The position numbers were made by a program, and so were the translations under genes. DNA of 64,000 bases from a virus. Taxonomy: Duplodnaviria > Heunggongvirae > Uroviricota > Caudoviricetes. A model generated the notes under the pieces. It did no database searches and had not been told where the DNA came from. It worked only from the letters and a program-made list of their open reading frames with translations. Shown piece by piece: positions 36,639 to 64,000 of this stretch; position 1 is the first letter of the stretch; the number at the start of each line of letters is the position of its first letter. The stretch is taken from positions 47,478-111,477 of IMG/VR virus record IMGVR_UViG_3300025913_000024. The stretch is one strand, 5' to 3'.

Positions 36639-36901
36639 GTGGTCCAGCTCCAAAGCATGGACAACCTACCCACCATGAAGCTGTTCATCACGTTTATCTT
36701 ACTGTAGAACAGATGGAGAAGATGACAACTCAACGTCTTCTAGCTTACTTCAAGAAACACTTGATGCATGATCCATTCTATCCTTCCAGTGAAAAAGAAA
36801 AACATGACGAGTGGGAGATGGTTAGAGCTAAAGCTCAAAGTATACTATCAAGTAGAGAACATGTTCCTTCTAAGAGGGAACTCCAAAAGAGAAAGAAATG
36901 A
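36635..36901 (+). CDS. hypothetical protein (88 aa)
   Basis: ATGA overlap. Confidence 0.45.
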   Translation: MSGPAPKHGQPTHHEAVHHVYLTVEQMEKMTTQRLLAYFKKHLMHDPFYPSSEKEKHDEWEMVRAKAQSILSSREHVPSKRELQKRKK

Positions 36902-37320
36902 CACGATACGTTTTAGGTTTTCTTTTTGATGACGAAAAGAACACGGTCGTCTTGATCAAGAAAAACAAGCCTGTTTGGCAAAAAGGTCTCTTGAACGGTG
37001 TTGGTGGGAAGATCGAAGAAGGTGAACTTCCTATAGTCGCTATGGTAAGAGAGTTTGAAGAGGAAACGTCTGTGAAAACAGACAACCTTGATTGGAAGCA
37101 CTTTGCTGGTGTTGAAGGCGAAGGTTACTCCATCGCTTGTTTCTACACCATCAGTTCTGACTACATGAAAAACGTCAAGACCATGGAAGAAGAAGTGATC
37201 GAGATTCGTAGGATTCGAGATCTTCAAGATCTTCCTATAGTCTCCAATCTTCTTTGGTTGGTTCACCTTGCAAAAGATGAAAACAATGGTAACCATCCTA
37301 CTGTTCAAGTAAAGTACTAA
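36898..37320 (+). CDS. Nudix hydrolase
   Basis: Nudix box GGKIEEGELPIVAMVREFEEETSV fits Gx5Ex7REUxEExGU with G replaced by S in the last position. Confidence 0.65.
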   Translation: MTRYVLGFLFDDEKNTVVLIKKNKPVWQKGLLNGVGGKIEEGELPIVAMVREFEEETSVKTDNLDWKHFAGVEGEGYSIACFYTISSDYMKNVKTMEEEVIEIRRIRDLQDLPIVSNLLWLVHLAKDENNGNHPTVQVKY

Positions 37321-38706: not shown

Positions 38707-39917
38707 ATGGCCCGTATTGAAAAGCTGATCATGGTGACCGGTGAAGAGAATCACAACAAGGTCTATGAGCTGATCGACAACGAGAACGGTACTTGTACCG
38801 CCAAGTGGGGTCGGGTTGGCGCTGCTCTTCAGGAGTGCAACTACCCCATCAGCGAGTTTGAAAAGAAGCTCAAGGAAAAGGTCAAGAAGGGCTATCGCGT
38901 GATCACCGATCTTCTGTCTGTCGAGAAAAGTGATGGTAAGACCACCACTACGGACGACGAAGAGGTAAAGATCCAGAACATGTCCCGTGAGGCCATGGAG
39001 TTGATCAACTTCCTCCAGAGTTGTGCTAAGGCATCGTCAAGCAGAACTACACCGTCAAAGTTGCCGACGTTACTCAGAAGCAGATCGACGCTGCTCAGGC
39101 CATCCTGGACGGACTGGTTGCTCTGTCCAACCAGAACTGGTCTCGTGAAGAGGCCAACAAGATCCTTTTGGATCTTTACAACACCATCCCCCGGAAGATG
39201 AGCAACACCAAGAACTTCCTCATCCAGATCGACAACATCACGAAGAAGCGCCTTCAGGAGTTGATCTCCAGTGAAGCCGATCTTCTTGACGTTATGCGCG
39301 GTCAGGTTCAGACCACGAACGTTGCTCCCAAGTCTTCCACTGGCGAAGTCAAGTTGGATATTGAGATTCGTCTCGCTACTCCCGATGAGATCGATGAGAT
39401 CTCCAAGAAGACTGACTTTGATGTTCGTAGTGCTGCAAGGATCTATCGGGTGGAGAACACCAAGACCAAGAATCGCTACGAAAGTATCAACAAGCAGAAT
39501 GAACAGCTTCTCTACCACGGTTCTCGCAGCCAGAACTGGTGGTCGATCATCAACGGCGGTTTGAAGATTCGTCCGACCAACGCCGTTCACACTGGCTCGA
39601 TGTTCTCCGATGGTATCTACGCTGCTGACAAAGCTCAGAAGTCTCTCGGTTACACCGACGGTGGTTATTGGACTGGTAGCAGTGGTTCCTCGAAGAGGTT
39701 CCTCGGCATCTACAGTTTCAACCTCGGTCGTCAGTGGGATCTGTTCGCTGGTGGTCAGCGTCATGCCAGCTGGATGATGCAGCTCAACCTGAAGAAGATC
39801 AACGACAAGGGTTTTGACTCTCTGTTCGCTAAGGGTGGAGCAGATCTTCGCAACAATGAGATGATCGTGTTCGAAGAGGCTCGCTGCACCATCAAGTATC
39901 TGATCGAGATGCGTTAA
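38707..39917 (+). pseudogene. PARP-like ADP-ribosyltransferase (WGR domain, helical region, H-Y-E catalytic domain), split by a -1 frame change near 39027-39032
   Basis: N-terminal WGR motif TAKWGRVGA. C-terminal LLYHGSRSQNWWSIINGGLKIRP ... GSMFSDGIYAADKAQKS ... NEMIVFEEARCTIKYLIE parallels PARP1 [23 protein letters not shown] ... GYMFGKGIYFADMVSKS ... NEYIVYDIAQVNLKYLLK. Frame 1 turns into Ser/Thr/Arg-rich nonsense after ...FLQSCAK. Frame 0 is open from 39030 and reads as sensible protein. A single continuous 403-codon gene needs a 1-nt change. Confidence 0.75.
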
Positions 39918-49228: not shown

Positions 49229-49293
49229 GGATTCATTCCTCCGAGATTCTTTATCAATTAGTGCAAATAACTCGTAAGTTTATAGGAACGCAT

Positions 49294-49322: not shown

Positions 49323-49338
49323 AATCGAAAGAGATTGA

Positions 49339-49869: not shown

Positions 49870-49918
49870 AAAGACTCCTTAGAAAATCTCCATGTTACTC
49901 ATGGGTTTTCTACCCTAG

Positions 49919-50119: not shown

Positions 50120-50125
50120 GATAAG

Positions 50126-52518: not shown

Positions 52519-55500
52519 TAGCTACCGATCCTTGTGATCTGGATCCACACGTTAACGTCTGATGGTTGAGAAGCAGCACTGTCGTTTTGAAGCCAGATCT
52601 GATCTCCTACTACCAATCGAAGAGTGATGTTTGAAGAACCAGAGGTTGCTGTTACTGGAGTGGTACCAAAGTACCTCCATCTAGAACCATTCTTAAAGAT
52701 CTGACAGTTACCTGCTGTTCCTGTGGTATAGGAGTTGGTTTCTACCAAATAGAGTCCAGCAACTGGACAAACGAACTTCCAGCTTGCTCCTGTTGTGACA
52801 GCACTGTGAGTATCTTCCACTTTCGTTTGAAAGTTAAGAACTACGTTAGTTGCCGTGGAAGGAACAGAGATGTACTCAGCTCTAACCATGGATGGTTGTT
52901 CAGCCATGTTTCCATTGCTGACTTTTCTAACTCGCCACTTAACAGTAGAAAACGCACTCCAAGCTGAACCGTTATTGGTTCCATAAGTTGATCCAGGATA
53001 AATACCGCTGTTTCCTATTTCTACTAGAGCTCGTTTCTTGTTGGTTGTGTCTCGTCTTACTTGAACACCATATCTGGCGTTACCTTGAACAGCAAATTCC
53101 ATAAAAGCATAAAGAGGTCCCCAACCTATTCCGTTATCGTTTATCTCTAGAATAAGTTGGTCTGTAGATTGAATCTCTCTAGCAAAGTCAACAGCGTACT
53201 TTGTGGAGAATCCGTTAGAGAAGTCTGTACTGACAACAGCAACAAAAGCACTTCCATCTTGACCAGTTTTTTGTCCTGTGGTAAAGGTGGTGTTGGTAGT
53301 TGTTCCTCCAGATCCATCGTTAGATGCATACTCTGTGAAATCGCTTGCTAGGTTTACATTTGACGACCATTGAGAGATCTTAGCCTGGAAGTAAACTGTG
53401 ATGACGTCTGTAGACGCCCATGTGATTGGGGTGGTTGCTGTCCATGCTGTAGCTCCGTTACCACCAAAGGGGTAACGATACTCCAAGTTAAATCCGATTC
53501 CTCCGCCTAGAAGACCAGGAGATAAATCACCACCATAACGTGAAGATGAGTGGGTTCCTATTGCATATCCAACAGGCCTGAAGGTTGAGGTTAATCCTGA
53601 AGGGAAAAGAACGTTGATCTGACCAGTAACTGCTCCAGATAAGGTGATAGCTATGACACCTTCCAAAAGATCGCCTTTACGCCAAACGTGAGAGTTTGCT
53701 AGGTCGATAGTTCCAGGAACGTTTTGGAAAGACATTTGACCGGCGTACTCTCCACCAATTGCTGCTCCAAGAACTGGAATGAATGGAGTGATAGTAACTT
53801 GATCGATGTTCATGGTCCAAGCAAGAGCGTTTGTTGTGGCAACATGGAAAACCAAACGATAACTTGTTGATGTCGAAGCTGGCCAGAAGGTAGCTGAGAA
53901 ATAGGTTCCAGCTGAAGCAGTTGGAAGAGAGTTTATTGAGATCGGAATGAAGTTCGAGTTTGTCTTATCATATAGATAGGCTAGAATGTCTCCTGCAGCG
54001 TAGTTTGTTGATGTCTTGAAGTAGAAGGACAAACCTAGAGTGGAACCTAGAACAGCCGGATCCAAGGTAAAGTCATATGAGATTCCTTGACCTTGTCTGT
54101 TGGCAGCATCTTTGGTAATTAGACCATCGCCTGTTCCAATGAGAGGTGTTGTTCCATTTCTAGCTAGAGTAAGGACAGCTGTTCCACCAGTTCCATCAAC
54201 TGGCGTTGCTGAAGCTCCATCGTTGTATGTTGCCCAGCCAGAGATATCACTCTCAAATGTTCCATTAGAAATGTAGTTCAATCCACTGGACGGGTTGGTG
54301 AAGATGACGCTAGGGTTGTTCAACAAAACTGTATCAGGGAAAGCTTGAACTGTCCAAAAAGAGATCACTGTTCCAGTTGAGTCTTTTACACTTAAAGAGG
54401 AAAGATCTGGAATGTTAAAGGTGGTTGAACCATCTCCAACTCCATAAGAAGTTCCCCACAATGAGAACAACTGAGAATAAAAAGATCTACCAACAGCAGC
54501 TCCGTTCAATTGTAAGAGGTTTCCTGGAAGAGATCCAACAGAACCTGTCCAAAGAGTTGTTCTTCCAAGTCCTACAAGAGCCGTTGTTCCTGTGATGACT
54601 TGAACAGGCTCACCAATGGTGATCAAGAGGTCGGTGGCGTTGACAGCGATACCGATAGCAACTCTGAAGCTTCCAATGGTGATGGTGTTAGGATCTGTGA
54701 TGACTTGGCCATTTGTACCAAGATAGTAAAAGGTTCCAGGTGTCATTCCTGATCCGAAACCAACCATGATCGAGCCAGAGGCTTGCCAAACAATGGTAGC
54801 TGCAGAAGCTCCTCCATTGAAAGCTATTCCAATAGCAGTAGCTGTTGTCTCGGTGTCGTTGCTAGCGTGTTGAAGTGTTCCAGAGGACGTGATGTAGACC
54901 ACTCTCTTGGTGGTGACTGCGTTTGTTCCTACGGTTCCTGTAGATGAAGCAGAACCTCCAACAGGAGTCCAGTTTGCGTGGGTTGTGTCTGTTGATGGAT
55001 CGTGGTTTAGGTTACCGTTGGCGTTAGAAGAATAGGCAACACCTAATCTGTTGATGATCGCGTATTGGGTGTAGGTAACGTTTGATTGCCAAAGAGGAAG
55101 AGACGAGATTCTAAAAGCTTCTTTGACTGAAGCTTGAGAAGGCGGTTGAGTAGTGGAGTTTGATGCGAAGGTAGCATCATCTATGGCAGCAAGACCAGAC
55201 AAAGCTGAACTGAGACCCGTGACATTAGCTATGACTACGTTAGCAAACACTCCTGAAGCTGATAAAAATTTACCTGCTGCAGTATCACCAGAAGCTGGTG
55301 CAGGAACCACACCTTGAGTTCCACCAGATCCTGAATCTCCTATGAAAGTAGGAAGATGAACCATAACTGAAGAAGGACTGTTAGCTTGAGGAATAGCAGA
55401 ACTTCCTGAAAAGTTACTGAGGATAGCATTGTTTGGTATGCTAGCCATCTTAGTAAGAGTTACTGCTCCGTTTGAGATCGTTGTAGAAAGAGATCCGGCA

Positions 55501-56936
55501 GAGTTTGTTACATCTCCAGTTAAGGCAGGAAACTGAGCAGCCTGTAAGGTTCCTGATACATCAGAGCTAAGAGAGATAGACAAGAGGGTCTTAACTTGAG
55601 AAGGCGTTAATGCGGCTGGAGTGGCTGGAGATCCCGTGTTGTTTCCGATGATAGAGTTGGCTGCCAGGTTTGCCATCTTGGAAAGACCAACTGCTCCAGC
55701 AGAGATGGTAACAGACAATGAGCCTGATGTTGTGGTAGCATCTCCTGTTAAGGCCGGAAATTGAGCAGCTTGAAGAGTTCCAGAGACATCTGTAGAAAGA
55801 GAGATCGCTAGTAAGGTTTTAACTTGAGTTGAGGTCAACTCAGATGGTGCTGCTGAAGAACCTGAAACGTTGCCTAAGATCGATGAGTTGGAGATGTTAG
55901 CCAACATTGACAAGGTGACTTGACTAGCTCCGATTGAGAACTGAGTTCCAGTAAGTGTTAAACCAGAGCCTGCTGTGTAACTAGGAACAGCGGAGAACTG
56001 GACGAAAGTGATGTTTGTGGTTCCTACGGTCAAACCTGAAGTAGGTGTTGTACAAACCCATCCTGTTGAAGCATTTATTGTACCAGAAAGAACTAGAGAG
56101 AAAGCACCGAAGAACTCCGTAGGAGCATCCATACCAACAGATCTTGTAAGAACTACAAAGAGTCCAGCTCCACCGGCGTTGGTGACTGTATAAAGACCAT
56201 TGTGAGGTTGATTTCCTCCTGTCTCGTTCTTAACTAGAACAACATCGCCTAACGAAAGAACAACGCCATCTATGGTTAAGGTTCCACTTCCGTTCATGGT
56301 GATCGTAGCACCGACTCCTGAGGTTCCGTTGGAGTAGGTGTTGGAAGGAAGAGCCGTTGTTGTGGCTACTTTAGCAGAAGATTTGACAGACAAGCCTTGA
56401 GCTGTCATGTCAACGTAGTTCTTGGTAGCGATGTCTTGAGCAGCAGAAGGATCAACGACTTGAGCTCGGCCAGATCCATCTCTTAGAACTGGTTGGTTTA
56501 CTGTTGCTGAAGAGGTTCCTACTACCACCCAAGTTCCACCAGCTGATAAGAACTTATGACTAGAGAAATCTCCAGAGGCTGGAGCTGGAACTAGACCAGC
56601 TGTTCCTCCAGAACCTGAGTCTCCAACCAAGATAGAAAGGTAAGCTGTGATGGCTGAGATCGCTGTAGCGACAGGTATTGCTGGAGACCCTGTGACGTTG
56701 GCTAGAACAGTGTGAGACGCTATGTTTCCTAGACCACCTGCTGCTAAAGCATCTTCTAGGTCTGGGATATCTGAGATCTGAGGATAAGGTTGGTTGTCTC
56801 TCTTGATCCCGTTCTCAGGATCAAACTCCATGGACCTACCATTCTGAGAAATGGTGATCTTAGCTCCGGCCGTGATCTGTCCGGTTGTTTTGAGAGTACC
56901 GGTAAGGATGGATGGAACTAGGAGAGGATTTGCCAT
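52518..56936 (-). CDS. large tail fibre protein (1472 aa) with internal repeats and a C1q-like C-terminal tip
   Basis: Three roughly 72-aa tandem repeats (residues about 336-520). Duplicated FIGDSGSGGTQGVVPAPASGD segment. Central ANRQGQG module. C-terminal ...NVWIQITRIGS. Confidence 0.65.
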   Translation of the reverse strand: MANPLLVPSILTGTLKTTGQITAGAKITISQNGRSMEFDPENGIKRDNQPYPQISDIPDLEDALAAGGLGNIASHTVLANVTGSPAIPVATAISAITAYLSILVGDSGSGGTAGLVPAPASGDFSSHKFLSAGGTWVVVGTSSATVNQPVLRDGSGRAQVVDPSAAQDIATKNYVDMTAQGLSVKSSAKVATTTALPSNTYSNGTSGVGATITMNGSGTLTIDGVVLSLGDVVLVKNETGGNQPHNGLYTVTNAGGAGLFVVLTRSVGMDAPTEFFGAFSLVLSGTINASTGWVCTTPTSGLTVGTTNITFVQFSAVPSYTAGSGLTLTGTQFSIGASQVTLSMLANISNSSILGNVSGSSAAPSELTSTQVKTLLAISLSTDVSGTLQAAQFPALTGDATTTSGSLSVTISAGAVGLSKMANLAANSIIGNNTGSPATPAALTPSQVKTLLSISLSSDVSGTLQAAQFPALTGDVTNSAGSLSTTISNGAVTLTKMASIPNNAILSNFSGSSAIPQANSPSSVMVHLPTFIGDSGSGGTQGVVPAPASGDTAAGKFLSASGVFANVVIANVTGLSSALSGLAAIDDATFASNSTTQPPSQASVKEAFRISSLPLWQSNVTYTQYAIINRLGVAYSSNANGNLNHDPSTDTTHANWTPVGGSASSTGTVGTNAVTTKRVVYITSSGTLQHASNDTETTATAIGIAFNGGASAATIVWQASGSIMVGFGSGMTPGTFYYLGTNGQVITDPNTITIGSFRVAIGIAVNATDLLITIGEPVQVITGTTALVGLGRTTLWTGSVGSLPGNLLQLNGAAVGRSFYSQLFSLWGTSYGVGDGSTTFNIPDLSSLSVKDSTGTVISFWTVQAFPDTVLLNNPSVIFTNPSSGLNYISNGTFESDISGWATYNDGASATPVDGTGGTAVLTLARNGTTPLIGTGDGLITKDAANRQGQGISYDFTLDPAVLGSTLGLSFYFKTSTNYAAGDILAYLYDKTNSNFIPISINSLPTASAGTYFSATFWPASTSTSYRLVFHVATTNALAWTMNIDQVTITPFIPVLGAAIGGEYAGQMSFQNVPGTIDLANSHVWRKGDLLEGVIAITLSGAVTGQINVLFPSGLTSTFRPVGYAIGTHSSSRYGGDLSPGLLGGGIGFNLEYRYPFGGNGATAWTATTPITWASTDVITVYFQAKISQWSSNVNLASDFTEYASNDGSGGTTTNTTFTTGQKTGQDGSAFVAVVSTDFSNGFSTKYAVDFAREIQSTDQLILEINDNGIGWGPLYAFMEFAVQGNARYGVQVRRDTTNKKRALVEIGNSGIYPGSTYGTNNGSAWSAFSTVKWRVRKVSNGNMAEQPSMVRAEYISVPSTATNVVLNFQTKVEDTHSAVTTGASWKFVCPVAGLYLVETNSYTTGTAGNCQIFKNGSRWRYFGTTPVTATSGSSNITLRLVVGDQIWLQNDSAASQPSDVNVWIQITRIGS
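55377..55931 (-). repeat. intragenic imperfect tandem repeats (about 216 bp x 2.5) within the large fibre gene
   Basis: Visible at nucleotide level (GCCATCTTAGTAAGAG... / GCCATCTTGGAAAGAC... / GCCAACATTGACAAGG...) and at protein level (...QVKTLLAISLSTDVSGTLQAAQFPALTGD appears twice). Confidence 0.7.
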
Positions 56937-56960
56937 AACTTTGATAATTAGTCAAATTTT

Positions 56961-56973
56961 TGAGATATTTTAG
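56961..56973 (+). promoter_or_regulatory. TGAGATATTTTAG promoter-like motif
   Basis: 18 nt before ATG 56992, in the divergent spacer next to the fibre gene start. Confidence 0.4.
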
Positions 56974-56991
56974 ACGAAAGAGGTACGCTAA

Positions 56992-57327
56992 ATGATCCGT
57001 ACTGAGCGCGAGCTCTGCTCATACATCCACAATGAGATGAACTTTAATCTCAATGCCCAGTTCGGTGACTTCAAGAGAGTCGTCCTTCAGAAGGATCACT
57101 CTATTGATGACAACGAGATCAAGATCACGTACTCATCCAATGACTCCAAGACCAAGAGAACCATCGATACTCTGATCGCCAAGAAGAAACCTTACGGAGA
57201 GTACATTCTCCAGATCAAGGATCTTCCGTCGGCGATTTACTTCCTCAGCTGCATCAACGAGTTTGATACTCTTGATGAAAAGCATCGGGTGAGCATGATC
57301 GACCAGCTCTTTAGGAGCGTTCAATGA
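56992..57327 (+). CDS. hypothetical protein, paralogue pair member 1 (111 aa)
   Basis: MIRTERELCSYI ... SAIYFLSCINEFDTL ... IDQLFRSVQ matches MIQSEADLCRFI ... SAMIFLTQVNSMQEPL ... ISDLFESVK in the next gene. Confidence 0.5.
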   Translation: MIRTERELCSYIHNEMNFNLNAQFGDFKRVVLQKDHSIDDNEIKITYSSNDSKTKRTIDTLIAKKKPYGEYILQIKDLPSAIYFLSCINEFDTLDEKHRVSMIDQLFRSVQ

Positions 57328-57671
57328 TTCAATCAGAAGCTGACCTTTGCCGGTTTATCCGTTTCGGTCAGATGCCTTCTTGGCCTGCTGGACGCTTTCA
57401 AACCTATTTTGAAAGCAATAATCTTTTGATCGTAACTTACCATCCTTACCATCCTCAGGCAAGTTCAGATCTTATTAAAGTACTATCTATCGAGTATTTT
57501 CCAAGCGAGTTTGCTTCTGGAATCCTTGGTGGTTGTCGTCTCTCTGTTCATGACAAAGCCAGTGCTATGATCTTCTTGACTCAAGTGAATTCAATGCAAG
57601 AGCCTCTTTACCTGGAAGAAGAAATCAAGCGTCTTAAGGACATCTCTGATCTTTTTGAGAGTGTAAAATGA
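57324..57671 (+). CDS. hypothetical protein, paralogue pair member 2 (115 aa)
   Basis: Tandem paralogue of 56992-57327 with ATGA overlap. Confidence 0.5.
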   Translation: MIQSEADLCRFIRFGQMPSWPAGRFQTYFESNNLLIVTYHPYHPQASSDLIKVLSIEYFPSEFASGILGGCRLSVHDKASAMIFLTQVNSMQEPLYLEEEIKRLKDISDLFESVK

Positions 57672-58447
57672 GCTCAGAACTTGCTAACCTCGCAGTCTAT
57701 AACGCTGGCATGAAGAAGTCGATGATGGACAAGATGTTCTTCATCGACAAAGTCGATGCCCATGTTTTCATCGACTATGGCTGTGCCGACGGAACTCTCA
57801 TTCACTTTCTTCGAGGTCTCTTTCCTGAGTTCATCTACTATGGCTTTGACATCTCTGAAGACATGATCCAGGAAGCCAAGAAGAAGAACCCTGAGATCGC
57901 TCACAACTTCACCTCCGACTGGAGTTACATCTCTGACAGAATTCCTTCTCTTAGAGGAGAGGGAAAGATCTCTGTTCTCTTGTCCTCGATCATCCACGAG
58001 GTCTACAGCTACGGAACCGGAAACGATGTTGAGACTTTCTGGGATCGAATCTTCAATGATGGTTTTGACTACATCGTTATCAGAGACATGATGCCCAGCA
58101 CGAGTATGAACCGCCAGGCTGACATCAACGACGTAGCCAAGATCTACCGTAAGGCTGATAAAGAAAAGCTCTACGAGTTCCAGCAGACTTGGGGTTCTAT
58201 CGAGAACAACAAGAGCATGATCCACTGGTTCCTCAAGTATCGTTACGACGACAACTGGGAACGTGAAGTCAAAGAGAACTATCTCCCTTTGAATCGGGAA
58301 CAGTTCTTGAGCATGCTTCCAGACAACTACGACATCACCTTTCATGAGCACTTCATTCTTCCTTACCTCCTCACTCAGGTTCAGAAAGACTTTGGAGTCG
58401 TGATCAAGGATAACACTCACTTGAAATTGATCTTAAGGAAAGCATGA
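57668..58447 (+). CDS. class I SAM-dependent methyltransferase (putative)
   Basis: Motif I-like VFIDYGCADGTL and motif II-like YGFDISEDM. Confidence 0.45.
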   Translation: MSSELANLAVYNAGMKKSMMDKMFFIDKVDAHVFIDYGCADGTLIHFLRGLFPEFIYYGFDISEDMIQEAKKKNPEIAHNFTSDWSYISDRIPSLRGEGKISVLLSSIIHEVYSYGTGNDVETFWDRIFNDGFDYIVIRDMMPSTSMNRQADINDVAKIYRKADKEKLYEFQQTWGSIENNKSMIHWFLKYRYDDNWEREVKENYLPLNREQFLSMLPDNYDITFHEHFILPYLLTQVQKDFGVVIKDNTHLKLILRKA

Positions 58448-58749
58448 TGGAAGTAGGAATTTTCATAGTGATCTTGTCTGCGGCTTTCCTAGTTTGTGTT
58501 CTTCTTTGCGTTGTTGCCACGTGCTCAGGTAACATCAAAAAATTTTATGAAAAAGAAGAAAAAGAACTTAAGGATAAGATTCTACTTTTATTGTCCTCTG
58601 GTCTAAAAGAAGAAGCTTTCCAAAAGTTCTGGTGGGATAGTCCGGAATGTATGGTGTTGAGTCCGGACATTTACAACCCCACTGACAAGATCTCAGAAGA
58701 TGAAGCTAAAGAACTCTTTTTCCAAAAGTACAATGTGAGATTTTCGTGA
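58444..58749 (+). CDS. membrane-anchored protein (101 aa)
   Basis: N-terminal TM segment IFIVILSAAFLVCVLLCVVATC. Confidence 0.45.
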   Translation: MMEVGIFIVILSAAFLVCVLLCVVATCSGNIKKFYEKEEKELKDKILLLLSSGLKEEAFQKFWWDSPECMVLSPDIYNPTDKISEDEAKELFFQKYNVRFS

Positions 58750-58997
58750 AGAACAATGATGAACTCTTGAGACTTTTGATGTCTGCCAACCAAGGCTTAG
58801 GCGGACAAATCTTTGAAAAAGCTATCGTCAACATTCAGGTAGGACTTTGTCCTACTTGTGGAGAAGCTTACAAAGGTTTTAGAGATCGAGCATCTATTGA
58901 AGAGTACAGAATCAGTAGAATGTGTCAGGATTGTCAAGACTCCGTTTTCAAAGAGCCTGACGATGACGAAATGTTTTACGATCCTCCGGAAAATTAA
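58746..58997 (+). CDS. zinc-ribbon protein (83 aa)
   Basis: CPTCG ... CQDCQD. Confidence 0.45.
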   Translation: MKNNDELLRLLMSANQGLGGQIFEKAIVNIQVGLCPTCGEAYKGFRDRASIEEYRISRMCQDCQDSVFKEPDDDEMFYDPPEN

Positions 58998-58998
58998 G

Positions 58999-59430
58999 AT
59001 GGTTACAAGAAAAATTTGGCGTTTTGAAAACGAAAAAGGTGAAGGTCCTTATAACGGACACCCTAGTCCAAAATTTCTCTTTAAGTCTACTCATGACGGA
59101 GAGTCTAAGAAACATCCTCATCCCAAGTATGACTTTAAGAACTCTAAGATCATTAGATTCTTAAACAACATGAACACTAAAGATCACTTTAGATGTGGAT
59201 TTTCTACAAAGAAACAGGCATTTGAGTGGTTTACTGAACGAGAAAGAAAGATCTTGAAAAATAATGGCTACAATTTAGTCCGTAAAAATGCAGATAGAAT
59301 CTTTAAAGGAAACAAACAAGTTATCTATATTCGTGAAGGTCATTTAGAAGAACTTGTTAAAGTTTTTCGTTTTGATCATTCTGTTCCAAAAACATTAACA
59401 TCAATATATTCAATCAGGAGCTCAACATGA
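58999..59430 (+). CDS. hypothetical basic protein (143 aa)
   Basis: ATG after the upstream stop; the track ORF starts earlier at 58858 inside the previous gene. Confidence 0.45.
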   Translation: MVTRKIWRFENEKGEGPYNGHPSPKFLFKSTHDGESKKHPHPKYDFKNSKIIRFLNNMNTKDHFRCGFSTKKQAFEWFTERERKILKNNGYNLVRKNADRIFKGNKQVIYIREGHLEELVKVFRFDHSVPKTLTSIYSIRSST

Positions 59431-59978
59431 TGCTACAGACCATTGAAGGAAACCTAATCACTCTCGCCCTTGAAGGCAAGTTCGACATGATCGCTCATGG
59501 TTGTAACTGCTTCCATACCATGGGAGGAGGGATCGCCAAGTCTATTTCTGAGACTTTTCCTGAAGCTCTTCAAGCCGACAGGGTCTTTGGAGAAAGAGGA
59601 AACGTTTGGAAGCTTGGTCAGGCTTCCAAGGCTACGATCTTTCGTGGAGACACTCAGTTTGTTGTGGTGAACCTCTATACTCAGTTTGAGCCTGGAGCCA
59701 ACTTTGAATACTTGGCCTTGATCAACTCTTTAGAGCATCTCAAGAAATACTTGGATATTCATCTCTACGATCGAGTGTCCGATAAACCTTACCGTCTTGG
59801 TTTTCCCAAGATCGGAGCTGGTATTGGTGGTGGAGATTGGGACCAGATCTACCAGATCATTGACCAGTCTCTTGACGAGAAGTATCGTGAGGAACAGGGA
59901 GTCGAAATCACGGTTGTCGAGTTCATTCCTCCTAATCCTCTTCAGGAGATCGTTGTTCGTTCTCTTCAGAAGAAGTAA
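59427..59978 (+). CDS. Macro domain protein (ADP-ribose binding / ADP-ribosyl hydrolase family)
   Basis: N-terminal FDMIAHGCNCFHTMGGGIAKSI parallels the macro motif NAAN..L.GGGV..AI. C-terminal YRLGFPKIGAGIGGGDW parallels the macro motif SIAFPAISTGIYGYP. RBS CAGGAG 6 nt upstream. Confidence 0.7.
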   Translation: MMLQTIEGNLITLALEGKFDMIAHGCNCFHTMGGGIAKSISETFPEALQADRVFGERGNVWKLGQASKATIFRGDTQFVVVNLYTQFEPGANFEYLALINSLEHLKKYLDIHLYDRVSDKPYRLGFPKIGAGIGGGDWDQIYQIIDQSLDEKYREEQGVEITVVEFIPPNPLQEIVVRSLQKK

Positions 59979-59981
59979 GCC

Positions 59982-60146
59982 ATGGAAACAATAGAAGAAC
60001 AGATTGAAAATATGCTCATCATGGCCTCGGCTATGAGAGTTTCCAATCTTCCTATCTCAATCAAGATTGCAGCACTCGAAGTTGAAGTAGCCCTTAGAAA
60101 ATTAGGGCTAGAGATTCTCAAAGCAAAGGTAGAAGAACCTGTATGA
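59982..60146 (+). CDS. hypothetical protein (54 aa, below ORF-track cutoff)
   Basis: ATG 4 nt after the Macro stop; ends overlapping the next start. Confidence 0.3.
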   Translation: METIEEQIENMLIMASAMRVSNLPISIKIAALEVEVALRKLGLEILKAKVEEPV

Positions 60147-60448
60147 AAAAGATCATTACTCTTTTGATCCTCTTGGTAGGACTCACTCTCTCCGTTGGAG
60201 CTGAAAAGGCTGATATCAGTGGAACTGTGTCTAGACCTGGATATAGTTCTTACGACTATCATCTAGATATTACTCAGGTTCCTCAGGCTCCTGCTGAGTA
60301 CAAGCTCGTAGAAGCCAAGGATGCTGCTGAGCTCACTCATTTGATCACCGAGATGGTGAAGATCGGTTGGGTTCCTCTTGGTCAGGCGTTTATGAGCAAC
60401 ACTGGAAACCACTTTTACCAGACCATGGTGAAGTACGGAAGGTACTAA
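60143..60448 (+). CDS. secreted protein (101 aa)
   Basis: Signal-peptide-like MKKIITLLILLVGLTLSVGA. Confidence 0.5.
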   Translation: MKKIITLLILLVGLTLSVGAEKADISGTVSRPGYSSYDYHLDITQVPQAPAEYKLVEAKDAAELTHLITEMVKIGWVPLGQAFMSNTGNHFYQTMVKYGRY

Positions 60449-60449
60449 C

Positions 60450-60743
60450 ATGCCCCCAGAATTCGATTCAATCAAAAGGTACTCCGAGATCGAAGATGGT
60501 ATCGTAGATAGAATGGCCGTCTCAGCTTTTGGAGAAGCCACAACTCGAATGGAGAAAGATGGAGACGATGCCTCAGAGTGGCTCGCTCTTGATCTTTCAG
60601 ATTCTCTACTCTATCTTCTCAAGTCTGACTCGATCCTCAAGAAACTTAAGAAGGCTCTCGGGACTCCTTTCAATGAAGAGCTTTATCTTGATCAGTTAGA
60701 AGCCATCAGAGACCAGGTGAGACAATTTTACGAGATCATGTAA
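60450..60743 (+). CDS. hypothetical acidic protein (97 aa)
   Basis: ORF in a co-oriented block. Confidence 0.45.
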   Translation: MPPEFDSIKRYSEIEDGIVDRMAVSAFGEATTRMEKDGDDASEWLALDLSDSLLYLLKSDSILKKLKKALGTPFNEELYLDQLEAIRDQVRQFYEIM

Positions 60744-60991
60744 TGTCCACCGAAAAAGAGTTCTCCGACATCATCAAGAAGACTCAAGAAGACGAAGCGA
60801 CTTACCAATTTTTGAAGTCAAGAAATAAGGCTCAAAGGATCTACGTTTGGAACTGGATCTATCGAGGTTTTTGTTTTCTTCCACTTCAAGCTGTTGCTCC
60901 TTTCATGTTTTGGTTTGTCTTTTTATCAAATCATGGAATGTTTCAAAACCCTGAAGACATAAATTGGTTCGGGCCGTTCTCATGCTCTTGA
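60743..60991 (+). CDS. small membrane protein (82 aa)
   Basis: TM segment FCFLPLQAVAPFMFWFVFL. Confidence 0.45.
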   Translation: MSTEKEFSDIIKKTQEDEATYQFLKSRNKAQRIYVWNWIYRGFCFLPLQAVAPFMFWFVFLSNHGMFQNPEDINWFGPFSCS

Positions 60992-61503
60992 TGTTAGGTG
61001 TTTTAGCTTTCTTTGTCGGATGGATGTGTATCGATGGCCTTCGTAAGATCATGATGGACTCTTTCTTGGAAAGATTCGATGACGTTGATGACGATGATGA
61101 TGTCGAGGATGCAGATTTTGTTTGGCCAGACTATAAAGCTCCTGATAGAAAAGTTTCTTTCTTGGGAAAACAGTTCTCAGCTACAAATGCCATGCTTTGG
61201 TTGACAGCTAGACAAGAAAGAATTCCAGCTGAAAAACGTCAAAGACAGATTGAACGAGATGTCAAGAGAAACCAAAGAAATGCAGAGCTCATGCGAAAGC
61301 AGGAGTTGTTGAGTGCTAAACAAAAGGTCCGAAATGAAGAGAAAAGAATCTTCAAAACCTCTAGAAAACGAAAAGCTGTTCTTGAGTGGATCAAAGAAGT
61401 CGGTGCTATCAACGATCCTGAGATCTACAAGAAAGTTATCAATGATCTAAAGATCGCTTTGAACGAAGGAAAAGAAAATGTGGGTCAAACAAGTCAGTCC
61501 TGA
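60991..61503 (+). CDS. membrane-anchored protein (about 170 aa)
   Basis: TGATG overlap; N-terminal TM segment; basic coiled C-terminus. Confidence 0.45.
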   Translation: MLGVLAFFVGWMCIDGLRKIMMDSFLERFDDVDDDDDVEDADFVWPDYKAPDRKVSFLGKQFSATNAMLWLTARQERIPAEKRQRQIERDVKRNQRNAELMRKQELLSAKQKVRNEEKRIFKTSRKRKAVLEWIKEVGAINDPEIYKKVINDLKIALNEGKENVGQTSQS

Positions 61504-61690
61504 TCCGAAACTAGTGTTGTATCACGGAATCTGTGATTACTGCGGTGATCCTAACGCTCAGGTCTATCGAGCACATGTTTCTGCTGGAGGGCCTTTAAGG
61601 TACGACTCATCTAACCACGATGATATCAAAAGATGCCTTCATTATCTCAAGAAAAGAGTAGAGTCTTTAGAGAAAAATCAAAAAGACTAA
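61478..61690 (+). CDS. hypothetical Cys-containing protein (70 aa)
   Basis: CDYCGD motif. Confidence 0.4.
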   Translation: MWVKQVSPDPKLVLYHGICDYCGDPNAQVYRAHVSAGGPLRYDSSNHDDIKRCLHYLKKRVESLEKNQKD

Positions 61691-61696
61691 TTCCTT

Positions 61697-62392
61697 ATGC
61701 ACCAAAATCTTAGCTATCTCAAATGGTGGTTCAAGTACCGTCCGAGCGTCTTCTGGTTTAGCATCAGGGACGCTTTCAAGTATCCAAAACATACCATAAG
61801 AAATCTTATCACCTTCTTCTCAAACGATGGAGTCCGTCACTCAGATTCTTGGAGTCCATACTCTGCTCTGTCTGAGAAATTCTTGAGGATGACCAAGACT
61901 TTTAGACAAAAAGTTCATGGGTACCCTGGAATCGAAGGTGACTCAAACTGTGATACTTACGAGCACTGGCAAGACACCATCAAGAAGATCAGACTTGCAC
62001 ACTTTTGGATTTGGTGGCAGGACAACGATCCATCTTGGATGATCGAGTCTTCTGAAGATCGTAAGAATGTCTATCTCTGGTTAAAGAAAAAGTACCCTTT
62101 TGCTGCAGAGTTCATAACTCCAAGGTTCTTGAAAAGATGGCACACCGATGTGCATCTTGAGTGGAACTTGGAGATCGATTGGAACGAGATAGAAGATCAC
62201 ACGGTTGAAGGCACTTATTATCACTCTGATTTTAAGTTTATCAACAAGAAAACTGGTGAGATCTTTCCTTGCGTCAATGCTCTAGATGAACCTGATGGTT
62301 GGGGAAACAACGAACTTCGTCAAGAGATGGAGAAAAAGTACTTAGAAGGGAGTGATCTCTTTCATAAGTACTACAGGAACCTTTGGGACTAA
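61697..62392 (+). CDS. hypothetical Trp-rich protein (231 aa)
   Basis: Long ORF with no motif. Confidence 0.5.
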   Translation: MHQNLSYLKWWFKYRPSVFWFSIRDAFKYPKHTIRNLITFFSNDGVRHSDSWSPYSALSEKFLRMTKTFRQKVHGYPGIEGDSNCDTYEHWQDTIKKIRLAHFWIWWQDNDPSWMIESSEDRKNVYLWLKKKYPFAAEFITPRFLKRWHTDVHLEWNLEIDWNEIEDHTVEGTYYHSDFKFINKKTGEIFPCVNALDEPDGWGNNELRQEMEKKYLEGSDLFHKYYRNLWD

Positions 62393-62398
62393 CTTTCA

Positions 62399-62986
62399 AT
62401 GGGAAAGACTGCAGTTTTTACATTTGCAAGAATGAATCCTCCAACTTTAGGTCATGAACTATTGCTCTCAGAACTTGTCATTCAAGCCTTAGAAAAGAAA
62501 GCTGATCCATTTCTTTTCCTTTCCCACACAGAAGACTCTAAGAAAAACCCTATTCCTTACGGGAACAAAGTTAAATTTGTCAAAGAACTTTTCAAAGATA
62601 AGTTCCCTGAACTCCATATCTACTCAGGAGAGAGCTGCAAGAACCCTAGAGAAGCTCTCTCTTTCCTTTACAATCTTGACGATTACTCTGAGGTGATTGG
62701 AGTCTTTGGTAGTGATCGAGTGGATGACATGTACGATCTTATGACCAGAGGAAACGGAAAAGAAGGTCTTTCATCTGGTTTCTATCTCTTCAACAAACTC
62801 TCTGTCACATCAGCCGGAGAACGAGACCCAGAACAAGATGGAGTTGAAGGTGTTTCTGCCACTAAACTCCGTGAGTACGCTCTAGAAAATGACTTTGAGT
62901 CCTTCAAAAAAGGTCTTCCAGAGGCTGACGAAACACTAATTAATAACATCTTTCTAACGACCCAACGAGGACTTGAACGTGCCTGA
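62399..62986 (+). CDS. NMN adenylyltransferase-like nucleotidyltransferase (archaeal NadM-type HxGH fold)
   Basis: FARMNPPTLGHELLL parallels GRMQPFHRGHLQVI ((H/T)xGH motif). FLFLSHTEDSKKNPIPYGNKVKFVKELF parallels [38 protein letters not shown] resembles the C-terminal ATP motif. Confidence 0.55.
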   Translation: MGKTAVFTFARMNPPTLGHELLLSELVIQALEKKADPFLFLSHTEDSKKNPIPYGNKVKFVKELFKDKFPELHIYSGESCKNPREALSFLYNLDDYSEVIGVFGSDRVDDMYDLMTRGNGKEGLSSGFYLFNKLSVTSAGERDPEQDGVEGVSATKLREYALENDFESFKKGLPEADETLINNIFLTTQRGLERA

Positions 62987-64000
62987 AAAAACTATCCCTA
63001 ACTCTGGAGCGGTCTCTTCTGATCGAATCCTTCAAAAGAACGTTTTTCCAACCATTGAGGTCTTTGTTGATAAGATCTTGAACTTGGTTCCTCACCAGAA
63101 GTATGGCGTGATCGGATCTACTGGAAAGAAACAAGACAACGGAGATATCGACCTAGGCCTTGAAACCTCTTTGACCTTAGATCAAGTGAGTGCTGTCCTA
63201 AACGACCTTGACGTTGATCATGTGGTTCAAAAAGGACTTAATGAGATCAATTGTCGATTTCCTCAGTATGAGAACGGAGCTCACAAGTTAGATCTTTGGG
63301 TTCAGGTTGACTTGATGTTAGGAAATTTGGATTGGTTGGAGTTCGTGTTCTACGTGGACAAGGACACCAAGTACAAGCCGATGGCTAGAACTGGTCTTCT
63401 CTTCGGTCTACTCAAAGTAGCTGCTATGCCTATCGCTGGCCAAAACACACCTCAAGGTCCATCTAATGAAGTTTGGTCTTTTGCTCCTACTCGTGGTATG
63501 TTCACCAAGGTTGGAACCAAAAGAACTAACAGAAAAGGTGAAGAAGTCATCGATTGGACCAACTCGTCTTCTTATACCCCTGACCCAAACAAGTTTTGTG
63601 AGATCGCCTTTGAACAAGCTAGGCGCGCTGTAAAACCCTCTGAACTAGAAACTTCCTTTGAAGGTTGTTGGAAGGTTATGACAGACGTTTTCTCTAACAA
63701 CCCTACTCTCTTAGGTCAACTCGCAGAGTATGTCATGAACTTCTGTAAGGACAAGGGAGTCTCACCGGTTCCTGAGCTTGAACAATGGACCAAAGCCTTG
63801 AAGGTTCAAGAGTCTATTGAACAACTTCTTGAATACGTTGAGTACATCAAGGGTCACAAAAACTCCTCTGGAGAATCTGCTCCTTGGGTCATCAAACAAC
63901 ATAACACTGGAAAGATCCTCTCAAGCCACTCCTCTGAGGCCAAGGCTAAGGCTCACCTCGGTCAGATGGAGATGCACAAACATCTGGAAGAAAAGTATGA
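62979..64000 (+). CDS. Pol-beta-superfamily nucleotidyltransferase (partial, runs off the window end)
   Basis: GTG start with RBS GAGGA 7 nt upstream. YGVIGSTGKKQDNGDIDLGLE matches the hG[GS]x(9-13)DhD nucleotidyltransferase motif. The ORF is open to nt 64000 (not in the ORF track because it lacks an in-window stop). Confidence 0.5.
   Translation, partial: MPEKTIPNSGAVSSDRILQKNVFPTIEVFVDKILNLVPHQKYGVIGSTGKKQDNGDIDLGLETSLTLDQVSAVLNDLDVDHVVQKGLNEINCRFPQYENGAHKLDLWVQVDLMLGNLDWLEFVFYVDKDTKYKPMARTGLLFGLLKVAAMPIAGQNTPQGPSNEVWSFAPTRGMFTKVGTKRTNRKGEEVIDWTNSSSYTPDPNKFCEIAFEQARRAVKPSELETSFEGCWKVMTDVFSNNPTLLGQLAEYVMNFCKDKGVSPVPELEQWTKALKVQESIEQLLEYVEYIKGHKNSSGESAPWVIKQHNTGKILSSHSSEAKAKAHLGQMEMHKHLEEKY

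What the first reader, a model, noticed from the sequence alone, without database searches (positions are those of the whole stretch)
59427..59978. Macro domain protein: an ADP-ribose reader or eraser partner to the PARP-like writer
The GGG(I) loop and the second glycine-rich loop (GAGIGGGDW) of the macrodomain fold are visible directly. Macro domains hydrolyse or bind mono- and poly-ADP-ribose. This gene is 20 kb from the PARP-like gene, which implies that the phage carries both ends of an ADP-ribosylation cycle. The Nudix hydrolase at 36898-37320 could act as an ADP-ribose pyrophosphatase, and the NMN adenylyltransferase at 62399-62986 could regenerate NAD+. This resembles the vibriophage KVP40 NadV/NatV logic, but with different components.
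Basis: partly seen in the sequence, partly recalled or inferred. Interest (0 to 1): 0.7.

Follow-up and report, generated by a model that had tools for sequence, protein, structure and literature searches.

The report
Phage Tk.4/AdfM-type macrodomain gene
This gene does encode an ADP-ribose-removing macrodomain, but it belongs to a very common phage family (T4 Tk.4/AdfM) whose studied member protects the phage from a bacterial DNA-ADP-ribosylating toxin, so it is more likely a counter-defence enzyme than the partner of the phage's own PARP-like gene.

Summary

It is ordinary. It falls in PHROG 335 with T4-type Tk.4 (41% identity). Relatives occur in 2,710 of 50,697 phage records and in at least 403 bacterial loci.

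It belongs to the TARG1/DarG/Poa1p/SCO6735 group of macrodomains. An invariant Gln86 replaces the catalytic Lys of TARG1 and DarG, as in SCO6735, which cleaves thymidine-linked ADP-ribose on ssDNA. A T4 tk.4 knockout becomes sensitive to DarTG2 (preprint, gene renamed AdfM). My best explanation is therefore an orphan anti-DarT2 DNA de-ADP-ribosylase (confidence 0.5).

The writer/eraser idea is only partly supported:
- A WGR-PARP gene is present at 38707-39917, but it is split by a frameshift and lies 20 kb away.
- In 69 of 80 other phage PARP loci the partner is an adjacent macrodomain, Lys-type (TARG1-like) in all but one.
- None of 82 Tk.4-like macro loci has a PARP within 10 kb.

The Nudix gene is generic. 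The "NMNAT" is a HIGH-motif nucleotidyltransferase with only fold-level resemblance to NadD/NMNAT. No NadV was found in the window.

Verdict: new member of a known kind, low interest.

The parts
59427..59978 (+). Macrodomain gene (183 aa) of the phage Tk.4/AdfM family (phrog_335). It is a Gln-type member of the TARG1/DarG/Poa1p/SCO6735 group of macrodomains.
   Evidence: ORF. Pfam Macro above the gathering score. phrog_335 E=2.8e-53. 41% identity and E=5e-39 to RB14 Tk.4. AF2 model pLDDT 89.7. Foldseek hits to TARG1, Poa1p and DarG.
59416..59420 (+). Shine-Dalgarno-like AGGAG, 6 nt upstream of the ATG.
   Evidence: Read directly from the sequence.
59496..59510 (+). H24-G-C-N27-C motif. Asn27 aligns with the catalytically important Asn22 of T. 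aquaticus DarG. His24 and Asn27 align with H24 and N27 of SCO6735.
   Evidence: Family alignment A1: N27 invariant, H24 at least 90% conserved. Profile alignment to 5m31 and 5e3b. Motif table. Literature.
59520..59537 (+). First glycine loop, M32-G-G-G-I-A37 (phosphate-binding loop 1).
   Evidence: G33 and G35 conserved.
59670..59684 (+). N82-L-Y-T-Q86 strand. The invariant Gln86 occupies the position of catalytic Lys84 of TARG1 and Lys80 of DarG, as Gln85 does in SCO6735.
   Evidence: The role of Gln85 in SCO6735 is from PMC9411070.
59805..59840 (+). Second glycine loop, P127-K-I-G-A-G-I-G-G-G-D-W138. Gly134 sits where TARG1 has Asp125.
58999..59430 (+). Upstream gene (143 aa; phrog_1106, Pfam Phage_T4_Y00F). 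Its stop overlaps the macro start (ATGA), so the two are probably co-transcribed and translationally coupled. Its function is unknown, and it is not a conserved neighbour of macro homologs.
   Evidence: No homolog next to macro genes in 82 viral loci.
38707..39917 (+). Context only: a WGR-PARP gene split into two overlapping ORFs (38707-39201 with WGR; 39168-39917 with the regulatory and catalytic parts) by a 1-nt frameshift near 39027-39033. The H117-Y151-E231 triad is intact. No macro gene is adjacent to it.
   Evidence: Relatives have a single ORF of 383-442 aa.
36898..37320 (+). Context only: a Nudix hydrolase of unknown specificity.
   Evidence: PF00293 E=6.7e-11. NCBIfam best matches are MutT-type, far below their cut-offs.
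62399..62986 (+). Context only: a HIGH-motif (PF01467-type) nucleotidyltransferase. NMN adenylyltransferase is possible but not shown.
   Evidence: phrog_3041 'cytidyltransferase' E=5.7e-44. Homologs carry PF01467. AF2 model pLDDT 93.8. Best PDB folds are NadD/NMNAT at E=4e-6, TM about 0.6. No NCBIfam hit and only noise-level PDB sequence matches (E>=0.55).

Best explanation
The gene encodes a small, stand-alone ADP-ribosyl hydrolase of the macrodomain fold. It belongs to the family typified by phage T4 Tk.4, recently renamed AdfM.

Proposed mechanism (inferred, by analogy with SCO6735):
- The two glycine loops hold the diphosphate of ADP-ribose.
- His24 and Asn27 (the HGCNC motif) and the invariant Gln86 line the distal-ribose site.
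- Because Gln86 replaces the nucleophilic Lys of TARG1 and DarG, catalysis would run through a positioned or activated water molecule rather than a Lys-ribose adduct.

Most likely biological role: counter-defence. When a host DarT2-type toxin ADP-ribosylates thymidines in single-stranded phage DNA and blocks replication, the enzyme removes the ADP-ribose. It would thus act as an orphan 'antitoxin' carried by the phage.

Shown here: the gene, the fold, family membership and the active-site residue pattern. Inferred: the hydrolase activity, the DNA-thymidine substrate and the anti-DarT2 role.
For: Identity as a macrodomain: Pfam Macro above threshold; confident model; top PDB folds are TARG1, Poa1p and DarG.

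Family:
- It has the same best PHROG (335) as RB14 Tk.4: 2.8e-53 against 6.8e-66.
- It is 41% identical over 168 aa, E=5e-39, to RB14 Tk.4. This is clearly closer than to SCO6735 (7e-10), DarG (2e-9) or TARG1 (4e-5).
- It shares the HGCNC, NLYTQF and IGAGIGxGxW motifs with Tk.4.
- The only match in NCBIfam and in PADLOC is DarG (8.3e-6 and 2.6e-7).

Function of relatives:
- A clean tk.4 knockout sensitises T4 to DarTG2. The gene was the single significant hit in a transposon screen (bioRxiv 10.1101/2025.11.20.689424).
- SCO6735 has Gln at the same position. It hydrolyses thymidine-linked ADP-ribose on ssDNA, rescues cells from DarT toxicity, and is inactivated by Q85A (PMC9411070).
- A DarG2-like macrodomain of PhiKZ removes T-ADPr from DNA and counters DarTG2 (PMC13309987).

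Distribution fits a mobile counter-defence gene:
- It occurs in 2,710 phage records across many genera.
- Its neighbourhood is not conserved.
- It sits in a tightly packed cluster of small genes of unknown function.
Against: - No activity was measured for this protein or for T4 Tk.4. Enzymatic removal is only inferred in the preprint.
- Identity to Tk.4 is only about 40%, and substrate choice can shift within macrodomain families.
- Lys34 and the Lys-rich mobile loop, which help SCO6735 bind DNA, are absent here: position 34 is Gly and the loop is short.
- Bacterial homologs of this family are not next to DarT. Some sit next to ARH-type ADP-ribosylglycohydrolases, which hints at other or broader substrates.
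- The host of this phage is unknown, and so is whether it carries DarTG2.
- The same genome carries its own PARP-type transferase. SCO6735-type enzymes can also reverse PARP-made protein modification.
Confidence: 0.5

Rival explanations
1. The macrodomain is the eraser for the phage's own WGR-PARP. It would remove Glu/Asp-linked (or nucleic-acid-linked) ADP-ribose written by that enzyme, either to limit self-damage or to recycle the modification.
For: - A PARP gene with an intact H-Y-E triad lies in the same window.
- Phage PARPs nearly always travel with a macrodomain eraser: 69 of 80 loci.
- This PARP lacks the usual adjacent one, and 59427 is the only macrodomain in the 64 kb.
- One PARP locus (L145) has a Gln-type macro in the partner slot.
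- Klebsiella phage FBKp34 and uncultured phage LR756500.1 have a Tk.4-like macro 2.4 kb and about 10 kb from their PARP.
- Gln-type SCO6735 removes ADP-ribose from automodified PARP1 E988Q.
Against: - The two genes are 20 kb apart in different gene clusters, separated by a block of minus-strand genes (46362-56936).
- None of 82 Tk.4-like macro loci has a PARP within 10 kb.
- Tk.4-like macros are about 170 times more frequent among phage records than PARP.
- About 56% of jumbo phages carry a macrodomain anyway (PMC9503650), so co-occurrence in a 306-kb genome is expected by chance.
- 68 of the 69 PARP-adjacent macros carry Lys at the catalytic position.
- The window's PARP reading frame is broken.
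- XacN1, CM1 and Cellulophaga phi17:2 have a PARP with no TARG1/Tk.4-group macro nearby.
Confidence: 0.17
2. It is a hydrolase of small ADP-ribose derivatives. Candidates are ADP-ribose-1''-phosphate (Poa1p-like 'phosphatase', as PHROG names the family), O-acetyl-ADP-ribose, or ADP-ribose-derived immune signals or toxic metabolites made by TIR/SIR2/RES-type defences.
For: - The HxCNC motif and the first Gly loop resemble yeast Poa1p (4.7e-5).
- PHROG and many annotators call the family 'phosphatase' or 'O-acetyl-ADP-ribose deacetylase'.
- The comparative-genomics survey PMC9503650 argues that phage macrodomains mainly target soluble ADP-ribose derivatives.
- RNA-repair-type genes lie in the window and just beyond it: Thg1-like, HAD_SAK_2 and Rnl1.
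Against: - The annotations are name transfers, not tests.
- No Tpt1/KptA-type enzyme that would generate ADP-ribose-1''-phosphate was found. The PARP's weak match to PTS_2-RNA is below threshold.
- The only genetic phenotype known for the family is DarTG2 sensitivity.
- The Gln-type relative SCO6735 acts on macromolecule-linked ADP-ribose.
Confidence: 0.15
3. It reverses ADP-ribosylation of RNA (for example uracil-linked or phosphate-linked) imposed by host RNA-targeting ADP-ribosyltransferase defences.
For: - TARG1-group macrodomains have been reported to reverse RNA ADP-ribosylation. This rests on titles and abstracts seen (PMC13036486, PMC11833690); I did not read those papers in full.
- N3 of uracil is chemically analogous to N3 of thymine (my inference).
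Against: There is no direct evidence for any Tk.4-family member, and nothing in the window points to it.
Confidence: 0.1
4. It is a non-catalytic ADP-ribose reader or sponge, or it inhibits a toxin simply by binding it.
For: - The canonical Lys/Asp catalytic residues of TARG1 are absent.
- Catalytically dead SCO6735, DarG and TARG1 still inhibit DarT by interaction.
Against: - The Gln, Asn and His positions examined by mutagenesis in SCO6735 (Q85A and Q85E abolish activity) are invariant or nearly so across the family. That argues for selection on catalysis.
- The protein is a single small domain with no partner-binding extension.
Confidence: 0.05

Closest known systems
Phage T4 Tk.4 = AdfM (anti-DarT factor Macrodomain), PHROG 335
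   Same: Same best PHROG. 41% identity over the whole domain. Same HGCNC, NLYTQF and IGAGIGxGxW motifs. Stand-alone protein of about 150-180 aa in a cluster of small genes of a large myovirus-type phage.
   Different: The window protein has a 16-residue insertion around residues 106-121 and a C-terminal helix of about 15 residues that Tk.4 lacks. The neighbours differ: T4 has vs and tk.3. The anti-DarTG2 phenotype is known only for T4.
Streptomyces coelicolor SCO6735 (PDB 5E3B) and Bacteroides BT1257 (2FG1/2AFC): Gln-type orphan macrodomains
   Same: Gln sits at the position of the catalytic Lys. His24 and Asn27 have equivalents. They are orphan genes, not in a DarTG operon. The family profile matches them best among solved structures (1e-16 to 4e-13).
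   Different: Only 22-23% identity. SCO6735's Lys34 and its long Lys-rich mobile loop are missing. The strand motif is GQH rather than YTQ, and the second loop is GCGLAGG rather than GAGIGGG.
DarG antitoxin macrodomain (T. aquaticus 5M31/5M3E, M. tuberculosis 5M3I) and chimallivirus AdfM (PhiKZ gp104)
   Same: Same fold (target-normalised TM 0.80-0.81). The Asn (DarG N22) is conserved. The second loop is similar (GAGNGG against GAGIGGG). DarG is the only NCBIfam and PADLOC match. The presumed task is the same: removing thymidine-linked ADP-ribose from DNA.
   Different: Catalytic Lys80 is replaced by Gln86. There is no C-terminal DarT-binding domain and no adjacent DarT. The NCBIfam score is 25 against a cut-off of 250.
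Human TARG1 (OARD1) and the TARG1-like macrodomains encoded next to phage WGR-PARP genes
   Same: Best Foldseek match (7e-11). Same subgroup of macrodomains.
   Different: TARG1's Lys84/Asp125 dyad corresponds to Gln86/Gly134 here. In 69 of 80 phage PARP loci a macrodomain lies directly upstream of the PARP, Lys-type in 68 of them. This gene does not.
Yeast Poa1p, ADP-ribose-1''-phosphate phosphatase (6LFQ-6LFU)
   Same: Shares the HxCNC...GGGIA segment. It is the best single-sequence PDB hit (4.7e-5) and the source of the 'phosphatase' label.
   Different: Similarity is confined mostly to the first 80 residues. No pathway that would produce Appr1p is evident in the window.

Membership tests
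Macro domain superfamily (Pfam PF01661) | Profile match above the curated gathering score. | tested here: met
   26.6 bits against a cut-off of 22, E=6.3e-6, covering profile positions 2-117 of 118.
Macro domain superfamily (Pfam PF01661) | Three-layer alpha/beta/alpha macro fold. | tested here: met
   AF2 model with pLDDT 89.7. All top Foldseek hits in PDB and in the viral library are macrodomains.
Macro domain superfamily (Pfam PF01661) | Two glycine-rich ADP-ribose/phosphate-binding loops. | tested here: met
   MGGGIA (32-37) and GAGIGGGDW (130-138), conserved across the family.
Phage T4 Tk.4 / AdfM family (PHROG 335) | Best profile match to phrog_335, the same family as a T4-type Tk.4. | tested here: met
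   Window protein 2.8e-53; RB14 Tk.4 6.8e-66. Both have phrog_335 as the top hit.
Phage T4 Tk.4 / AdfM family (PHROG 335) | Full-length similarity and shared motifs (HGCNC, NxYTQ, GAGIGxGxW). | tested here: met
   41% identity over 168 aa, E=5e-39; motifs identical.
Phage T4 Tk.4 / AdfM family (PHROG 335) | Protects the phage against DarTG2. | not testable with these tools
   This phenotype is known only for T4 tk.4. It needs plaque assays.
DarG antitoxin (DarTG2 toxin-antitoxin system) | Catalytic Lys (Lys80 in T. aquaticus DarG). | tested here: not met
   Gln86 aligns with Lys80.
DarG antitoxin (DarTG2 toxin-antitoxin system) | Conserved Asn (Asn22 in T. aquaticus DarG). | tested here: met
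   Asn27 aligns with Asn22 and is invariant in the family.
DarG antitoxin (DarTG2 toxin-antitoxin system) | C-terminal DarT-binding domain, and full-length match to the DarG equivalog model. | tested here: not met
   The protein is a single 183-aa domain. NF048014 scores 25.3 bits against a cut-off of 250, matching profile positions 4-138 of 338 only.
DarG antitoxin (DarTG2 toxin-antitoxin system) | Encoded next to a DarT toxin gene. | tested here: not met
   The flanking genes (58999-59430 and 59982-60146) match no ADP-ribosyltransferase family. No DarT family appears among the 25 most frequent Pfam families of the same-strand neighbours of 80 bacterial homologs.
TARG1 (OARD1) type | Lys84/Asp125 catalytic dyad. 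| tested here: not met
   Gln86 and Gly134 occupy these positions. Its numbering reproduces K84 and D125.
SCO6735/BT1257 Gln-type orphan macrodomains | Gln at the catalytic-Lys position, plus His24 and Asn27 equivalents. | tested here: met
   H24, N27 and Q86 are present. Their roles in SCO6735 are described.
SCO6735/BT1257 Gln-type orphan macrodomains | Lys34 and a long Lys-rich mobile loop used for DNA binding. | tested here: not met
   Position 34 is Gly. The loop after Gln86 is short (FEPGAN) and has no Lys.
MacroD type (MacroD1/2, YmdB, viral nsP3 macrodomains) | Closest structural and sequence similarity to MacroD-type domains. | tested here: not met
   MacroD, YmdB and nsP3 hits are much weaker: Foldseek E about 1e-6 with rmsd 7-9 A, and profile E>=1e-3, than hits to the TARG1/DarG/Poa1p group.
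Phage macro-PARP writer/eraser cassette | Macro gene directly upstream of the WGR-PARP gene on the same strand. | tested here: not met
   69 of 80 phage PARP loci have this arrangement. In the window the macro gene is 20 kb from the PARP, and nothing macro-like lies next to the PARP.
NMN adenylyltransferase (claimed for 62399-62986) | Significant match to a NadD/NadM/NadR model or structure. | tested here: inconclusive
   No NCBIfam hit. The PDB profile search gives E about 0.03 to archaeal NMNAT. Fold search gives NadD/NMNAT as best hits, but at TM about 0.6.

The most novel reading that the evidence does not exclude
In PARP-carrying jumbo phages that have lost the usual adjacent TARG1-like eraser, the Gln-type Tk.4-like macrodomain may have taken over as a trans-acting eraser of the phage's own PARP products. 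One enzyme would then serve both self-regulation of a viral ADP-ribosylation system and counter-defence against host DarT.
Probability: 0.12. Interest if true: 0.55.

Novelty: new member of a known kind. Interest (0 to 1): 0.25.

Why it matters
The gene adds one more metagenomic member to a very large phage and bacterial macrodomain family, so by itself it changes little.

It is useful in three ways:
- It corrects a plausible but unsupported story. Two ADP-ribose-related genes in one large phage genome do not make a cycle.
- It gives a better annotation for PHROG 335 than 'phosphatase': AdfM-like, probable DNA de-ADP-ribosylase with a Gln-type active site.
- It exposes a contrast. The regular partner of phage PARPs is an adjacent, almost always Lys-type (TARG1-like) macrodomain, a conserved cassette that the literature I read does not describe.

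If the protein were shown to act both on DarT-modified DNA and on PARP products, it would illustrate how one eraser can serve both offence and defence in phage-host conflict.

Tried and rejected
- DNA-level search of 57000-63500 against GenBank phages: no match. The window comes from a 305,853-bp metagenome contig with no close cultured relative.
- Promoter and terminator scan of 56500-64000: counts no higher than in shuffled sequence. One plausible promoter-like site at 56941-56969 precedes the plus-strand cluster. No expression timing can be deduced.
- Conserved neighbours of Tk.4-like macros in 82 viral loci: none found.
- DarT next to bacterial homologs: not found. Neighbours are heterogeneous: tRNA synthetases, rpoC, ARH-type hydrolases.
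- A second macrodomain in the window, especially next to the PARP: none.
- Sequence-level support for NMNAT (Pfam, NCBIfam, PDB phmmer): none or marginal.
- Membership of DarG proper and of TARG1 proper: rejected because the catalytic Lys (and Asp) are absent.
- Whole-genome co-occurrence of PARP and Tk.4-like macros: I could check only +/-20 kb (+/-8 kb for Cellulophaga phi17:2) around the PARP in five GenBank phages. Two of the five have a Tk.4-like macro nearby. That is too few for statistics.
Full report
**1. The observation**

An ORF runs from 59427 to 59978 on the + strand (ATG start, 183 aa). AGGAG lies 6 nt upstream of the start. The start overlaps the stop of the preceding gene (ATGA).

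The statistical support is strong:
- Pfam Macro (PF01661) scores 26.6 bits, above its gathering score of 22, over almost the whole profile.
- PHROG 335 matches at 2.8e-53.
- An AlphaFold2 model built on 20 homologs has mean pLDDT 89.7.
- Its best PDB matches are TARG1 (7e-11), Poa1p, and DarG with target-normalised TM 0.80-0.81.

**2. The family**

tblastn finds relatives in 2,710 of 50,697 GenBank phage records. The top hits are the tk.4 gene of T4-type phages, next to vs. Further hits come from Felix-O1-like, PAK_P1-like, Acinetobacter, Vibrio, Aeromonas and Campylobacter phages.
- RB14 Tk.4 has the same best PHROG (6.8e-66).
- It is 41% identical to the window protein over 168 residues (E=5e-39). 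SCO6735, DarG and TARG1 score only 7e-10, 2e-9 and 4e-5.
- An exhaustive HMMER scan of 1.84 billion cluster representatives gives 4,941 relatives at E<=1e-3 and 1,688 at E<=1e-10.
- At least 403 loci in bacterial species genomes encode homologs at 40-47% identity.

The family is therefore very large and is shared by phages and bacteria. A published survey found macrodomains in 41% of myoviruses and 56% of jumbo phages (PMC9503650). The window is part of a 305,853-bp metagenome contig, that is, a jumbo phage. It also carries rIIA/rIIB and ribonucleotide reductase genes.

**3. The active site**

The family alignment has these invariant or nearly invariant residues: H24, G25, N27, C28, G33, G35, A37, N82, Y84, T85, Q86, P127, G130 and W138.

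Profile alignment to solved structures and a joint alignment give these correspondences:
- Asn27 sits on Asn22 of T. aquaticus DarG. That residue is catalytically important, and the equivalent N23A mutation was tested in PhiKZ AdfM.
- Gln86 sits on the catalytic Lys80 of DarG and Lys84 of TARG1.
- Gly134 sits on TARG1 Asp125.

The protein is therefore neither a TARG1-type nor a DarG-type enzyme in the strict sense. The same Lys-to-Gln replacement is found in SCO6735 and BT1257. For SCO6735 it was shown that Gln85 is essential and that the enzyme efficiently cleaves thymidine-linked ADP-ribose from ssDNA. It also cleaves Glu-linked ADP-ribose from automodified PARP1, and it protects Streptomyces from DarT. 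A water-mediated mechanism was proposed (PMC9411070). Unlike SCO6735, the window protein lacks Lys34 and the Lys-rich mobile loop.

**4. Function of the nearest studied relative**

A transposon screen of T4 found tk.4 as the single significant gene needed on a DarTG2-expressing host. A clean knockout became sensitive to DarTG2, and the gene was named AdfM (bioRxiv 10.1101/2025.11.20.689424). Enzymatic reversal was inferred there, not shown.

Independently, a DarG2-like (Lys-type) macrodomain of PhiKZ removes T-ADPr from DNA and counters DarTG2 (PMC13309987). Earlier work had predicted an unknown anti-DarTG2 factor in T4 (PMC11825919). The only NCBIfam and PADLOC models that the window protein touches are DarG.

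On this basis the best-supported role is an orphan, phage-borne de-ADP-ribosylase that undoes DarT2-type modification of phage DNA. I put this at 0.5. Neither the activity nor the host's defences are known.

**5. The writer/eraser hypothesis**

The PARP-like gene is real:
- PF00644 matches at 2.4e-22 for 39168-39917, and a WGR domain lies in 38707-39201.
- Both ORFs match one 383-aa PHROG.
- His117, Tyr151 and Glu231 are conserved.

However, the two parts are in different frames. Homologs are single ORFs of 383-442 aa, and the spacing fits a 1-nt deletion near 39027-39033. I cannot tell whether this is a true pseudogene, a population variant or an assembly error.

I then asked what phage PARPs are normally paired with.
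- Of 80 IMG/VR loci with a PARP homolog, 69 have a macrodomain ORF ending a few bases before the WGR-PARP start, on the same strand.
- 68 of these carry Lys at the catalytic position, and many carry the TARG1-like GxGLD. One example is 37% identical to human TARG1.
- One locus (L145) has a Gln-type macro there instead.

Phage PARPs thus do have a conserved eraser, but it is an adjacent, almost always Lys-type (TARG1-like) gene. The window has no macro next to its PARP and only one macro in 64 kb. Its closest PARP relatives (L087, L088, L109) also lack an adjacent macro.

The converse test also fails. None of 82 loci with a Tk.4-like macro has a PARP, WGR, Nudix or nucleotidyltransferase homolog of the window within 10 kb. 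PARP homologs occur in only 16 GenBank phage records.

Two PARP-positive phages without an adjacent macro do have a Tk.4-like macro nearby: FBKp34 at 2.4 kb and LR756500.1 at about 10 kb. Three others have none within the stretch examined. That keeps the idea alive at low probability (0.17) but does not establish it.

**6. The other claimed components**

- The Nudix protein is a generic Nudix fold. Its best NCBIfam resemblance is MutT-type and far below threshold.
- The protein at 62399-62986 has the HIGH motif (RMNPPTLGH), and its homologs carry PF01467. It has no NCBIfam hit, and its PDB sequence matches are only marginal (E>=0.003). A confident model (pLDDT 93.8) resembles NaMN/NMN adenylyltransferases best, but only at TM about 0.6. 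NMNAT is possible but not shown.
- No Nampt/NadV was seen among the window ORFs tested. A KVP40-like NAD+ salvage logic is therefore not demonstrated in this window.

**7. Bacterial homologs**

Same-strand neighbours of 80 bacterial homologs were scanned against Pfam. No DarT family appeared among the 25 most frequent families. Neighbours are heterogeneous: class I tRNA synthetases, rpoC in Rhodobacteraceae, and transporters. Six are ARH-type ADP-ribosylglycohydrolases. Cellular members are thus orphan enzymes, like SCO6735. The ARH association hints that the family may handle more than one kind of ADP-ribose conjugate.

**8. Verdict**

This is a genuine but ordinary macrodomain gene: a new metagenomic member of the T4 Tk.4/AdfM family with a Gln-type active site. 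It most likely acts in counter-defence against DNA ADP-ribosylation.

Noticed in passing
IMG/VR loci L004 and L089-L165 (for example L004:8233-10786, L105:9112-10771): A conserved two-gene cassette in phages. A macrodomain gene (Lys at the catalytic position in 68 of 69 cases, often with the TARG1-like GxGLD) lies directly upstream of a single-ORF WGR-PARP gene on the same strand. This is seen in 69 of 80 PARP loci. In about 44 of the 80 loci the cassette follows a replication module (primase, PD-(D/E)XK, PolIII-alpha-like, LigA-like genes). The papers I read do not describe it.
   Followed up: partly
window 38707-39917 (frameshift near 39027-39033): The WGR-PARP gene is split into two overlapping ORFs by what looks like a 1-nt deletion (gctaag|gcatc) relative to single-ORF homologs. 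The H-Y-E triad is intact. It could be a pseudogene, a population variant or an assembly error.
   Followed up: partly
L145:9082-9549: This is the only PARP locus where the adjacent macrodomain is Gln-type (LFGQ...GCGLAGGSW, like SCO6735) rather than Lys-type. It suggests that Gln-type macros can occupy the PARP-partner slot.
   Followed up: no
L167:16527-17042 (Klebsiella phage FBKp34 gp105) and L166:30678-31460 (uncultured phage LR756500.1): Two PARP-carrying phages without an adjacent macro have a Tk.4-like macro 2.4 kb upstream and about 10 kb downstream of their PARP. XacN1 and CM1 (within +/-20 kb) and Cellulophaga phi17:2 (within +/-8 kb) have none.
   Followed up: partly
window 26382-26873, 28577-29449, 30668-31126; L002:19920-20552 (beyond the window end): A set of RNA-repair-type genes: the HAD domain of 'Swiss Army Knife' RNA repair proteins, a Thg1-like 3'-5' nucleotidyltransferase, an HD-domain protein, and a T4 Rnl1-type RNA ligase about 10 kb downstream of the macro gene. 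CCA-adding enzymes lie next to or near the PARP in Cellulophaga phage phi17:2, L004 and XacN1.
   Followed up: no
window 58999-59430: The gene translationally coupled to the macro gene (ATGA overlap) belongs to phrog_1106 / Pfam Phage_T4_Y00F. Its function is unknown, and it is not a conserved neighbour of macro homologs elsewhere.
   Followed up: partly
bacterial loci L170-L249: Bacterial homologs of the Tk.4-like macro are orphan genes of about 151 aa. Six of the 102 same-strand neighbours scanned (from 80 loci) are ARH-type ADP-ribosylglycohydrolases (PF03747). Five homologs sit just downstream of rpoC in Rhodobacteraceae. None has DarT next to it.
   Followed up: partly
window 37349-37816 and L004:8767-9447: Homing-endonuclease-type genes sit beside the ADP-ribose genes: an HNH gene between the Nudix and PARP genes in the window, and a probable GIY-YIG-type ORF (judged by eye from its sequence, not scanned) between the macro and PARP genes in L004. 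This suggests these regions are hotspots for mobile insertions.
   Followed up: no
window 44428-45291 and 34704-35351: An SPFH/Band-7 protein and an M23 peptidase are encoded in the same long plus-strand gene region. They are unrelated to the finding.
   Followed up: no
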